The notes: generated from the letters alone by a model not told the origin. Shown: positions 15,312 through 16,049, counted from the first letter of the stretch. The stretch is DNA of 64,000 nucleotides from a phage (GCA_014685065.1 GCA_014685065.1_4092.2), one strand, 5' to 3'. Numbers and translations are program-made.

Positions 15312-16049
15312 TTATACTGAATTGTTAGGATAATATCTCCCATTTCCCCATATTATTCGCACAGCACCACCACCAGCAGCCGTATAAGAAGAATTATCCC
15401 ATATACTACCACCACCACCATACATCTTACCAGCACCACCACTACCAGCACCACCATTATATGAACCACCGTAGCTACCACCAATACCATTAGCACCTTG
15501 AACAATGATACCAGTACCACCACCCGTACCAATGAACGAGGTATTATAGAATGTACCACCGCCCCCGCCGCCGCCAGCACCATTTTCACCAGTGATTGCA
15601 TCTCCGTTACCACCTTTACCTGTGTAGCCACCAGCACCACCACCAATGACTGCACCACCACTTACACCAGTATTGCCACCATTACCACCACCATCATTAA
15701 TAGCGTTAGCAGCTTTTCCACCTAGTCCACCAACCGTATATGCACCAGTGAAGCTAACACATAGTTTTTCAGTTCCACGATATAAACCGTTTTCAACTGG
15801 TGTAGTAGTGTTGGTATGCGTAAGAGAAACACTTAAGTACTCACCACTAGTAACCGGAATATTATTACGCCACGATAAGCCGCCGCCAGCACCACGTTGA
15901 CCACCCGGCGAAATAACACATACTGATATTTCGGTAACGCCAGCAGGAACTGTAAATTGTGTTGTTCCTATTGTCGTGATTAATTGTTCACCATGTGGCT
16001 TATATTCAATTTCATTCCCGTACTTAATCATTCTTCCAAAAGGTAACAT
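15312..16049 (-). CDS. glycine-rich protein carrying the same MLPFGRM leader
   Basis: ORF track; long GGxGG tracts. Confidence 0.7.
   Translation of the reverse strand: MLPFGRMIKYGNEIEYKPHGEQLITTIGTTQFTVPAGVTEISVCVISPGGQRGAGGGLSWRNNIPVTSGEYLSVSLTHTNTTTPVENGLYRGTEKLCVSFTGAYTVGGLGGKAANAINDGGGNGGNTGVSGGAVIGGGAGGYTGKGGNGDAITGENGAGGGGGGGTFYNTSFIGTGGGTGIIVQGANGIGGSYGGSYNGGAGSGGAGKMYGGGGSIWDNSSYTAAGGGAVRIIWGNGRYYPNNSV

What the first reader, a model, noticed from the sequence alone, without database searches (positions are those of the whole stretch)
15312..16049. Glycine-rich protein carries the same leader as the propeller paralogs
This 245-aa protein starts MLPFGRMIKYGNEIEY but its body is long Gly tracts (GGGNGGNTGVSGGAVIGGGAGG...) rather than propeller blades. 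The leader is therefore modular and attached to at least two unrelated protein types, which favours a targeting or anchoring role over chance duplication.
Basis: partly seen in the sequence, partly recalled or inferred. Interest (0 to 1): 0.5.

Follow-up and report, generated by a model that had tools for sequence, protein, structure and literature searches.

The report
Shared N-terminal virion tag on phage proteins
A 12-residue N-terminal tag (MLPF…YGN) is shared by a glycine-rich, tail-fibre-like protein and nine unrelated propeller proteins in this jumbo coliphage, and by dozens of other proteins in related giant phages, and most likely works as a plug that attaches interchangeable binding modules to the virus particle.

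Summary
Window 15312-16049 (-) encodes a 245-aa, 29% glycine protein that starts MLPFGRMIKYGN. The same 12 residues open nine RCC1-like propeller genes at 10.5-22.1 kb, whose bodies are only 19-26% identical to each other.

The window is an Asteriusvirus jumbo coliphage, 100% identical over the 1-kb query to G17 and Sharanji.

The tag is not a local promoter-duplication artefact:
- Four paralogs keep it without the shared promoter cassette.
- It recurs with synonymous codon changes and unrelated upstream DNA in Serratia phage BF, Erwinia pEa_47, Pectobacterium CBB, Xanthomonas XbC2, GAP32 and metagenomic jumbo phages.
- 79 distinct proteins carry it, in 11 body clusters: RCC1, Kelch, Laminin_G_3, Gly_rich_2 and unassigned ones.

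Published virion proteomics detect tagged RCC1, Kelch/LamG and Gly-rich proteins.

Best reading: a clade-specific virion docking peptide, analogous to the "conserved peptide" of secondary receptor-binding proteins. The socket and the location on the particle are inferred, not shown.

The parts
15312..16049 (-). Complete CDS of the glycine-rich protein (245 aa plus stop). Ortholog of G17_00077, 121Q gp243 and JP4_CDS0224.
16014..16049 (-). Leader codons 1-12, MLPFGRMIKYGN: the shared N-terminal tag (type A consensus MLPFx[RQI][MLI]xxY[GA]N).
   Evidence: AlphaFold pLDDT is below 50 for residues 1-8.
15993..16013 (-). Residues 13-19 (EIEYKPH): a variable linker between tag and fold. The RCC1 paralogs have a Pro-rich IAPxP stretch here.
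   Evidence: mean pLDDT 75 for residues 11-20
15315..15992 (-). Residues 20-245: the glycine-rich domain (PF21722 Gly_rich_2 type), with a beta-sandwich N-terminal half and a Gly-rich C-terminal half.
16054..16061 (-). Shine-Dalgarno sequence AAGGAGGG, 4 nt upstream of the ATG.
   Evidence: read from the sequence
16062..16094 (-). Conserved promoter-like spacer (ttttctttttgtattaaatatattataatgaat, with TATAAT at 16067-16072). It is shared with five other paralogs and is probably a phage promoter (inferred).
   Evidence: alignment. Upstream 60 nt are 88% identical to those of the 17309 and 18529 paralogs. It does not fit a sigma-70 spacing.
16095..16115 (-). Intrinsic terminator hairpin of the upstream RCC1 gene, and the 5' edge of the repeated cassette.
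   Evidence: G17 annotation
15284..15306 (-). Intrinsic terminator of the glycine-rich gene. The gene is therefore a monocistronic cassette.
16122..17309 (-). RCC1-like paralog with leader MLPFARMMNYGNI (395 aa).
   Evidence: AlphaFold mean pLDDT 82.4, with residues 1-10 averaging 48.
14066..15241 (-). RCC1-like paralog with leader MLPFARMVKYGNI (391 aa).
17381..18529 (-). RCC1-like paralog with leader MLPFARMMNYGNI (382 aa).
18601..19740 (-). RCC1-like paralog with leader MLPFARMVKYGNI (379 aa from the leader ATG).
19811..20920 (-). RCC1-like paralog with leader MLPFGRMIRYGNI. It has no promoter cassette upstream.
20929..22131 (-). RCC1-like paralog with leader MLPFGRMVKYANI (400 aa).
12915..14057 (-). 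RCC1-like paralog with leader MLPFGRMVKYGNI. It has no promoter cassette upstream.
12095..12904 (-). Shortened RCC1-like paralog (269 aa) with leader MLPFSRMVKYGNI and no promoter cassette. Its syntenic, equal-length counterpart in phAPEC6, gp007 (orthology inferred, not aligned), was detected in virions.
10545..11714 (-). RCC1-like paralog with leader MLPFGRMLKYGNI. It has no promoter cassette upstream.
10090..10473 (-). Decayed copy: MLPFRRIITSS... stops after 44 codons, followed by out-of-frame remnants of an RCC1 C-terminus.

Best explanation
The gene encodes a small virion accessory protein built from three parts:
- a 12-residue N-terminal address tag (MLPFGRMIKYGN);
- a short variable linker;
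- a 225-residue glycine-rich domain of the PF21722 / ALK-GRD type. Solved virion structures place this fold at the outward-facing ends of tail fibres and tail 'brushes'.

The tag is a docking peptide specific to the Rak2-like jumbo-phage clade. It is unstructured on its own. It is proposed to bind a common socket on the assembled particle, most plausibly on the hair-like fibres or tail appendages described for phAPEC6 and CBB. Any body placed behind it would then be incorporated.

On this reading the 10-gene array in the window is a panel of interchangeable, lectin-like binding heads (propellers plus one Gly-rich head) that all use the same plug. The array evolves by duplication, body replacement and 5'-end homogenisation.

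Shown here:
- the tag is shared across unrelated folds and across genera;
- it is under protein-level selection;
- it lies outside the folded domains;
- the Gly-rich body has a fibre-tip-like fold;
- tag-bearing proteins of three body types are in virions, according to published mass spectrometry.

Inferred: that the tag is what causes incorporation, that the site is external, and what the socket is.
For: 1. Ten leader genes in the window against 0 expected by chance. Bodies are 19-26% identical while the leader is nearly invariant.

2. Four paralogs keep the leader without the promoter cassette.

3. The same leader occurs in other genera on other folds:
- BF: 7 RCC1-like genes, 2 Gly-rich and 1 LamG-like.
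- pEa_47: one additional LamG gene.
- CBB: 3 Kelch and 6 LamG-like.
- XbC2: 11 consecutive genes.
- In total 79 distinct proteins in 11 body clusters. Pfam confirms Kelch, Laminin_G_3 (35-48 bits against a cut-off of 27.6) and, just below its cut-off, Gly_rich_2.

4. Synonymous variation at the L, P and F codons in BF and CBB (TTA/CTA/CTT; CCA/CCT/CCC/CCG; TTT/TTC), with unrelated 5' UTRs, indicates selection on the peptide.

The exception is two contigs of about 20 kb with a divergent motif.

6. AlphaFold: the Gly-rich protein has mean pLDDT 92.9 with residues 1-8 below 50. The RCC1 paralog has mean pLDDT 82.4, residues 1-10 average 48, and the first propeller strand begins at residue 20.

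8. Virion mass spectrometry:
- phAPEC6: RCC1-like gp003, 005, 006, 007, 009, 010, 549 and 551.
- CBB: structural proteins in the CBB_534-553 cluster, including Kelch CBB_552.
- pEa_12/47/50 ghosts: the 25.9-kDa 'PE-PGRS' protein, which is the Gly-rich protein starting MLPFPIISNT, plus four RCC1-like proteins.
- JP4: three MLPF RCC1-like proteins.

9. The LamG and Gly-rich bodies also occur in rV5-like phages behind a different leader, M-x-E-[LM]-[LM]. The leader therefore tracks the phage lineage, not the body.

10. An experimentally proven precedent exists: N-terminal 'conserved peptides' of 7-29 aa dock secondary receptor-binding proteins and can carry foreign bodies into virions (PMC6872550, PMC13352976).
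Against: - No experiment links the tag to incorporation.
- The socket is unidentified, and no T4gp10-like partner was looked for.
- The Asteriusvirus Gly-rich protein itself has never been detected in virions. It is absent from the 49 JP4 proteins. It could not be scored in phAPEC6, where a wrong-frame 101-aa ORF was annotated in its place.
- Mass spectrometry cannot distinguish an external from an internal location.
- Within the window, codons 2-4, 6 and 7 have no synonymous variation at all. Local gene conversion or a nucleotide-level constraint therefore also acts here.
- The bodies are globular, presumably monomeric modules rather than the trimeric spikes that known docking peptides carry.
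- The gene is dispensable. It is absent or decayed in some Asteriusvirus genomes.
Confidence: 0.6

Rival explanations
1. The leader is a capsid-targeting sequence like the T4 CTS of internal proteins IPI-III. It would direct the proteins into the prohead (inner body), from where they are injected with the DNA. This is also the sense of the 'DNA condensation protein' annotation.
For: - It has the same architecture as the T4 CTS as I recall it: about 10 N-terminal residues shared by unrelated proteins, encoded in hyperplastic arrays with conserved 5' ends.
- The proteins are low-abundance virion components.
- phAPEC6 has an inner body whose proteins are unidentified, and its authors proposed the RCC1-like proteins for that role.
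Against: - There is no conserved Glu or prohead-protease-type site in either leader consensus. RCC1 paralogs continue with IAPxP.
- The body folds are typical outward-facing binding modules. The Gly-rich fold matches external tail-fibre and brush proteins in solved virions. LamG and Kelch are lectin-like.
- The proteins are retained in DNA-free ghost preparations.
- There is no sequence similarity to the T4 CTS (from my own recollection of that sequence; not tested here).
Confidence: 0.17
2. The shared 5' end is only a by-product of recent duplication or gene conversion of a terminator-promoter-RBS-start block, or is an mRNA-level translation-initiation element. The peptide itself would have no function.
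For: - In the window, a cassette of about 110 nt plus 36 nt is shared as one block by six genes. The Gly-rich gene's upstream 60 nt are 88% identical to those of two paralogs.
- Codons 2-4, 6 and 7 are nucleotide-identical in 10 of 10 genes, although TTA, CCT and AGA are used only 33-47% of the time elsewhere in these genes.
Against: - Four window paralogs have the leader but no cassette.
- In BF, CBB and XbC2 the upstream DNA differs and synonymous codons vary, yet the amino acids are kept.
- Gly-rich relatives at 42-58% identity (P0003, P0004, P0015) still begin MIPF or MLPF.
- Similarity stops exactly at codon 12-13 in every lineage.
Confidence: 0.05
3. The leader is an integral structural element of the fold, for example the 'velcro' strand that closes the RCC1 propeller, and the Gly-rich protein picked it up by accident.
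For: N-terminal strands commonly close beta-propellers (general knowledge). Most carriers are propellers.
Against: - AlphaFold leaves residues 1-10 unplaced (mean pLDDT 48) and starts the propeller at residue 20.
- The same is true for the Gly-rich fold.
- The tag is equally conserved on LamG, Kelch and Gly-rich folds, which have no common topology.
Confidence: 0.03

Closest known systems
N-terminal 'conserved peptide' of secondary receptor-binding proteins. Examples: KP32gp38 (29 aa), KP34-type MALxxLV heptapeptide, K1-5/K1E/SP6 hepta- and undecapeptides. It docks on a T4gp10-like branching domain or an adaptor protein (Leiman 2007 as cited in PMC6872550; Latka 2019 PMC6872550; Latka 2026 PMC13352976).
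   Same: It is a short N-terminal peptide, specific to a phage group, with unrelated bodies behind it. It is dispensable for folding of the body, and the carriers are virion-associated. Its modularity has been proven by fusing the peptide to a foreign enzyme.
   Different: - The sequence is unrelated.
- The carriers here are 9-12 small globular lectin-like modules per genome (propellers, LamG, Gly-rich), not one to four trimeric beta-helix depolymerases.
- The genes sit in their own array, outside the 62-kb window's other genes, none of which was identified here as structural.
- No T4gp10-like partner has been identified.
- There is no functional test.
T4 capsid targeting sequence (CTS) of internal proteins IPI, IPII and IPIII.
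   Same: About 10 N-terminal residues are shared by otherwise unrelated virion proteins. The genes form variable arrays whose conserved 5' ends can promote recombination (my knowledge of the T4 literature; papers listed).
   Different: There is no protease cleavage motif at the end of the tag. The bodies look like external binding modules. Location inside the head has not been shown.
Glycine-rich domain proteins (Pfam PF21722 Gly_rich_2): cyanophage Pam3 tail fibre (7ypx), mycobacteriophage Bxb1 tail wing brush gp33 and tail spike gp29 (9d93), and the ALK/LTK glycine-rich domain (7lir, 7lrz).
   Different: The window protein itself scores below Pfam's reporting limit. It is a stand-alone 245-aa protein with a short plug, not the C-terminal tip of a longer fibre.
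RCC1-like 'DNA condensation proteins' of Rak2-like phages (phAPEC6, 121Q, JP4 annotations).
   Same: The nine neighbouring paralogs belong to this group.
   Different: The 'chromosome condensation' name is transferred from eukaryotic RCC1. The leader shared with fibre-tip-like and lectin-like modules argues for a virion-surface role rather than DNA condensation (inference).

Membership tests
Pfam PF21722 Gly_rich_2 (glycine-rich domain) | The protein scores above the Pfam gathering threshold against the HMM. | tested here: not met
   The window protein has no Pfam hit at E<=1 or E<=0.01. 18 of 66 aligned homologs do match, with a best E of 3.5e-11. The BF/pEa gp379 type scores 22.2 bits against a cut-off of 24.3.
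Pfam PF21722 Gly_rich_2 (glycine-rich domain) | Significant sequence homology to bona fide members over the whole domain, with the conserved motifs. | tested here: met
   phmmer hits to PF21722-carrying proteins at E 1e-16 to 1e-9. Invariant or nearly invariant P35, G49, G55-G56, L58, N62, I64, V66, P68, G120-G125, G137-G141, Y142, R231 and W234 in the 66-sequence alignment.
Pfam PF21722 Gly_rich_2 (glycine-rich domain) | The same three-dimensional fold as solved glycine-rich domains. | tested here: met
N-terminal docking ('conserved') peptide of secondary RBPs | A short N-terminal stretch conserved within a phage group, while the rest of the proteins is unrelated. | tested here: met
   12 residues conserved across 79 proteins in 11 body clusters. 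Bodies are 19-26% identical or unrelated.
N-terminal docking ('conserved') peptide of secondary RBPs | The carrier proteins are components of the virion. | tested here: inconclusive
   Published mass spectrometry detects tagged RCC1, Kelch/LamG and Gly-rich (pEa 25.9 kDa) proteins. The Asteriusvirus Gly-rich ortholog was not detected in JP4 and could not be scored in phAPEC6.
N-terminal docking ('conserved') peptide of secondary RBPs | The peptide lies outside the folded body and is not needed for folding. | tested here: met
   pLDDT is below 50 for residues 1-8 of the Gly-rich model and averages 48 for residues 1-10 of the RCC1 model. The folds start near residue 20. These are predictions, not experiments.
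N-terminal docking ('conserved') peptide of secondary RBPs | Deleting the peptide abolishes incorporation, and the peptide binds a branching domain or adaptor (T4gp10-like). | not testable with these tools
   This needs phage genetics or multimer modelling. No partner was searched for.
T4-type capsid targeting sequence | The tag ends in a prohead-protease site ((L/I)-x-E in T4) and is removed on maturation. | tested here: not met
   Neither consensus (MLPFx[RQI][MLI]xxY[GA]N or MLPFPIIS[NSH][TL]) has a conserved Glu. Only the Gly-rich protein has E13 and E15. Cleavage itself is not testable here.
T4-type capsid targeting sequence | The carriers reside inside the head and are ejected with the DNA. 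| not testable with these tools
   The mass-spectrometry data do not localise the proteins.
RCC1-like beta-propeller (the neighbouring paralogs) | RCC1 repeat or RCC1-like domain HMM matches and an all-beta propeller model. | tested here: met
   PF25390 at E=1.6e-31 and PF00415 at 34.4 bits against a cut-off of 21.7 for the 14066-15241 gene. PF13540 at 23.2 bits against 22 for the 16122-17309 gene. phrog_4219 at E=1.5e-103. An almost all-beta AlphaFold model with 27 strands.

The most novel reading that the evidence does not exclude
Rak2-like jumbo phages use a universal plug-and-socket display system. Two orthogonal 10-12-residue N-terminal tags (type A, MLPFxRMxxYGN; type B, MLPFPIISNT) address a changing repertoire of at least ten kinds of lectin-like heads to defined sockets on the virion, possibly on the enigmatic 'hairs' on tail and capsid. 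This would give the particle a combinatorial adhesin coat.

rV5-like phages would have independently evolved an analogous tag (M-x-E-L-L) for the same LamG and Gly-rich heads. That would point to a general way in which binding modules move between phage lineages by swapping a few N-terminal codons.
Probability: 0.35. Interest if true: 0.75.

Novelty: new variant of a known kind. Interest (0 to 1): 0.6.

Why it matters
- It gives a testable function to the largest paralogous gene family of Asteriusvirus, Eneladusvirus and Mimasvirus phages. These genes are now annotated, probably misleadingly, as 'DNA/chromosome condensation' proteins.
- It links that family to the unexplained hair-like appendages of these virions.
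- A 12-residue tag that suffices for virion incorporation would be a simple handle for displaying foreign proteins on jumbo phages and for re-targeting them.
- It shows that short address tags are not confined to tailspike systems. They may be a general route for exchanging host-binding modules.
- None of the papers searched or read mentions the MLPF leader.

Tried and rejected
- **Pfam and NCBIfam on the Gly-rich protein itself:** no hit. Family assignment had to come from homologs, PHROG and fold.
- **'Velcro strand' idea:** rejected by the AlphaFold models.
- **Promoter-duplication explanation:** rejected as sufficient.
- **Sigma-70 promoter scan:** it does not explain the conserved upstream block. 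Counts equal those of the shuffles, and the TATAAT has no properly spaced -35 element.
- **Homolog search with one RCC1 paralog:** only 9 hits, so it was of little use for tracing the leader. A degenerate DNA pattern scan of IMG/VR worked far better.
- **Sharanji and fEgEco12 papers:** no proteomics.
- **JP4 supplement:** it uses its own gene numbering, so it had to be searched by peptide strings.
- **Whole-genome fetch of Sharanji:** started and then dropped. The IMG/VR scan already covers whole contigs of matching length to 121Q, CBB, BF and GAP32.
- **Contexts of two distant Gly-rich homologs (L003, L004):** no MLPF genes there. L004 did reveal the second leader type.

Full report
**Identity of the window.** A 1-kb stretch around the finding is 100% identical to Escherichia phages vB_EcoM_G17 and Sharanji, and 94-96% identical to 121Q, phAPEC6, JP4 and others. 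All are Asteriusvirus, the 'Rak2-like' jumbo myoviruses of about 350 kb. In G17 the ORF is G17_00077, a 'hypothetical protein' similar to 121Q gp243.

**The observation.** The ORF at 15312-16049 (-) is 245 aa and begins MLPFGRMIKYGNEIEY. A six-frame scan finds LPFxR[MLIVF] at the start of ten long ORFs and one 44-codon remnant, all on the minus strand between 10.4 and 22.1 kb. A 36-nt degenerate leader pattern matches 10 times, against 0 in 100 shuffles.

The nine other carriers are RCC1-like propellers (phrog_4219). Their bodies are only 19-26% identical to the reference paralog, whereas L2, P3, F4, Y10, N12 and I13 are among the few nearly invariant columns. The shared part is residues 1-12; the EIEY that follows in the Gly-rich protein is private to it.

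**Anatomy of the gene.** The gene is a self-contained cassette:
- the upstream gene's terminator hairpin (16115-16095);
- a conserved T-run and AT-rich block containing TATAAT;
- the Shine-Dalgarno sequence AAGGAGGG (16061-16054);
- the ATG at 16049 and the stop at 15312-15314;
- its own terminator (15306-15284) (G17 annotation).

Six of the ten genes share this upstream cassette. Four (ATGs at 20920, 14057, 12904 and 11714) follow the preceding gene directly, with unrelated upstream sequence, and still carry the leader. Mean pairwise nucleotide identity is 43% in the 60 nt upstream, 88% in the first 39 coding nt, and 33% in the next 60 nt.

**Is it only a duplicated promoter-proximal block?** Inside this genome there is a signal of homogenisation. 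Codons 2-4, 6 and 7 (TTA CCT TTT ... AGA ATG) show no synonymous variation in 10 of 10 genes, although these codons make up only 33-75% of usage elsewhere in the same genes. The wider comparison nevertheless rules out duplication as a sufficient explanation.

- In Serratia phage BF (Eneladusvirus), seven RCC1-like genes, two Gly-rich genes (gp377, gp379) and a LamG-like 'virion structural protein' (gp372) all start with MLPF. Their 5' UTRs are unrelated.
- In Pectobacterium phage CBB (Mimasvirus), nine genes do so: three Kelch propellers and six LamG-like proteins.
- In Xanthomonas phage XbC2, eleven consecutive genes do so.
- In BF and CBB the leader codons vary synonymously (TTA/CTA/CTT, CCA/CCT/CCC/CCG, TTT/TTC) while the residues stay. 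Selection therefore acts on the peptide.
- Metagenomic relatives of the Gly-rich protein at 58%, 57% and 42% identity still begin MIPFARIVKYGNEV, MLPFPIISNTN and MLPFPIMIHREN.

**How wide and how specific.** Degenerate DNA patterns for the two leader forms were scanned across IMG/VR. They hit only jumbo contigs of 348 kb or more: contigs whose lengths match 121Q, CBB, BF and GAP32, one unidentified 354,378-bp contig, and three metagenomic genomes. The exception is two contigs of about 20 kb carrying a divergent 548-aa protein.

Pooling all loci gives 79 distinct leader proteins. By all-against-all BLAST of residues 16 to the end, they fall into 11 body clusters. Pfam recognises:
- RCC1;
- Kelch;
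- Laminin_G_3, in three clusters, above the gathering threshold;
- Gly_rich_2, just below its gathering threshold (22.2 bits against 24.3).

Five clusters remain unassigned.

Two leader forms exist: type A, MLPFx[RQI][MLI]xxY[GA]N (61 proteins), and type B, MLPFPIIS[NSH][TL] (18 proteins). Both can occur in one array.

**What the body is.** The window protein has no Pfam or NCBIfam hit of its own but matches phrog_4474 at E=3.6e-67. It has 206 homologs, many of which carry PF21722 'Glycine-rich domain'.

BFVD hits are phage 'glycine-rich domain-containing proteins', a baseplate component, tail-fibre proteins and giant-virus collagen-like proteins. In the solved virions, this fold sits at outward-facing tail appendages.

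**Where the leader sits in the structure.** In the Gly-rich model, residues 1-8 have pLDDT below 50 and the first strand starts at residue 20. In the model of the RCC1 paralog at 16122-17309 (mean pLDDT 82.4), residues 1-10 average 48 and the propeller also starts at residue 20.

The leader is therefore a free N-terminal tail in both proteins, followed by a short variable linker (Pro-rich in the propellers). It is not the strand that closes the propeller.

**Virion association (published data).**
- phAPEC6 ESI-MS/MS lists RCC1-like gp003, 005, 006, 007, 009, 010, 549 and 551 among its 62 virion proteins (PMC7247149).
- gp007 is the syntenic, equal-length counterpart (orthology inferred) of the shortened 269-aa paralog at 12095-12904, and has the highest coverage of the group (17.5%). 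This fits incorporation driven by the tag rather than by an intact propeller (inference).
- CBB proteomics found structural proteins in the small CBB_534-553 cluster, including the Kelch protein CBB_552 (PMC5259590).
- For the Eneladusvirus phages pEa_SNUABM_12/47/50, LC-MS/MS of ghost particles lists a 25.9-kDa 'PE-PGRS family protein' with 1, 6 and 13 peptides, plus four 'DNA condensation proteins' (PMC7760394).
- That 'PE-PGRS' entry matches pEaSNUABM47_00566 by name and by calculated mass. This is a 280-aa, 32% glycine protein starting MLPFPIISNTNKLPPKGQQ.
- In JP4 (Asteriusvirus), three MLPF RCC1-like proteins were detected but the Gly-rich ortholog JP4_CDS0224 was not.
- In phAPEC6 the true ORF is intact, but a 101-aa ORF in another frame was annotated instead, so the protein could not have been identified there.

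**A second, independent leader on the same bodies.** Thirty-four of the 120 best Gly-rich homologs start M-[LIF]-E-[LMA]-[LM], including PVP-SE1 gp19 (MFEMMLATSE).

In a 150-kb Plesiomonas phage contig, two tandem Gly-rich genes (MLELMVCTNQ, MIELLAISG) follow a LamG-like gene (MNEMMIVSAQQ).

The LamG-like body of BF gp372 has homologs in rV5-like phages whose alignments begin only after the leader. CR3 gp255 reads MNEMLMLGQAKAKAG|LDIDF, against BF's MLPFARIVEYGNVAPAANIL|LDIDF.

The leader therefore tracks the phage lineage while the bodies move between lineages. This is what is expected if the leader fits a lineage-specific socket.

**Mechanism.** The best-supported reading is that the 12 residues are a docking peptide. 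The peptide is disordered alone. It would bind a common site on the particle, so that whatever follows it becomes part of the virion.

The bodies (propellers, LamG, and a Gly-rich domain of the fibre-tip type) are typical ligand- or glycan-binding modules. phAPEC6 and CBB carry unexplained hair-like fibres on tail and capsid. I therefore favour an external location, with an adhesion or host-range role (inference).

The closest established mechanism is the N-terminal 'conserved peptide' (7-29 aa) of secondary receptor-binding proteins. It docks on T4gp10-like branching domains or adaptors. Deleting it prevents incorporation, and it can carry a foreign enzyme into the virion (PMC6872550, PMC13352976).

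The main rival is a T4-CTS-like signal for packaging inside the head. It shares the architecture, but here there is no protease-site motif and the bodies look like external modules.

**Novelty.** No paper in the held library mentions the leader. The RCC1-like genes are still annotated as DNA or chromosome condensation proteins.

The principle (a short N-terminal address tag) is known. What is new:
- the sequence;
- the clade;
- the number and kind of cargoes, namely 9-12 small globular lectin-like modules per genome;
- the two co-existing tag types;
- the parallel M-x-E-L-L tag in rV5-like phages.

I rate it a new variant of a known kind, of moderate to good interest. The central functional claim still needs an experiment.

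Noticed in passing
window 10090-10473 (-): A decayed eleventh copy. It has its own terminator-like hairpin and RBS, then MLPFRRIITSS... that stops after 44 codons. Out-of-frame remnants of an RCC1 C-terminus follow (…YTKCVLPIEMNNVYVTATLYRTYLTDGIQIYSTGQN…), resembling P0128.
   Followed up: partly
window 16014-16049 and the nine other leader starts: Codons 2-4, 6 and 7 of the leader are nucleotide-identical in all ten genes, although the bodies are about 20% identical. In BF and CBB the same codons vary synonymously. This points to gene conversion or an added nucleotide-level constraint in Asteriusvirus.
   Followed up: partly
L004:8134-10744; L013:5968-6618 (CR3 gp255); L006:7001-7843 (PVP-SE1 gp19): rV5-like and other ~150-kb phages put a different short leader, M-x-E-[LM]-[LM], in front of the same LamG-like and Gly-rich bodies. 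34 of the 120 Gly-rich homologs start this way. This may be an independent address tag.
   Followed up: partly
L014:1238-1858 (Logan contig SRR12907740_527): An Asteriusvirus-like contig in which the Gly-rich gene has lost the RBS-to-codon-12 segment by deletion between two GGGAAT repeats. It has also lost 39 residues of the Gly-rich region. This looks like a decaying copy. Together with genomes that lack the gene (H19-H20), it shows the gene is dispensable.
   Followed up: partly
L002:8112-8864 and 8918-10174 (phAPEC6, MK817115): An annotation problem in phAPEC6. The intact Gly-rich ORF is replaced by a 101-aa ORF in another frame (gp004), and the adjacent RCC1-like gene is not annotated at all. 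Both would be missing from that study's mass-spectrometry search database.
   Followed up: yes
L012:359-10708 (XbC2); L007:319-9854 (BF); L032: Two leader sub-types, A (…Y[GA]N) and B (MLPFPIISNT), co-occur within single arrays. Intermediates also exist (MLPFPIMNKYGN, MLPFSIISHYGN). This may mean two sockets, or one tolerant socket.
   Followed up: no
window 12095-12904 (-): This paralog is a shortened propeller: 269 aa, lacking about 120 C-terminal residues in alignment A2. Its syntenic, equal-length counterpart in phAPEC6, gp007 (orthology inferred), nevertheless has the highest virion mass-spectrometry coverage of the RCC1 group (17.5%).
   Followed up: partly
window about 22200-24600, compared with L001:16247-17001: G17 annotates a further RCC1-like gene (G17_00070) just beyond the array. 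The window has no long minus-strand ORF at that position. Array size therefore differs between otherwise near-identical phages, and the window fits Sharanji's coordinates better than G17's.
   Followed up: no
L017:893 and L021:4385 (IMG/VR contigs of about 20 kb): A 548-aa protein starting MLPFYSVKDYANAGKDPQ matched the degenerate pattern outside the jumbo clade. It may be a chance match or an unrelated family.
   Followed up: no
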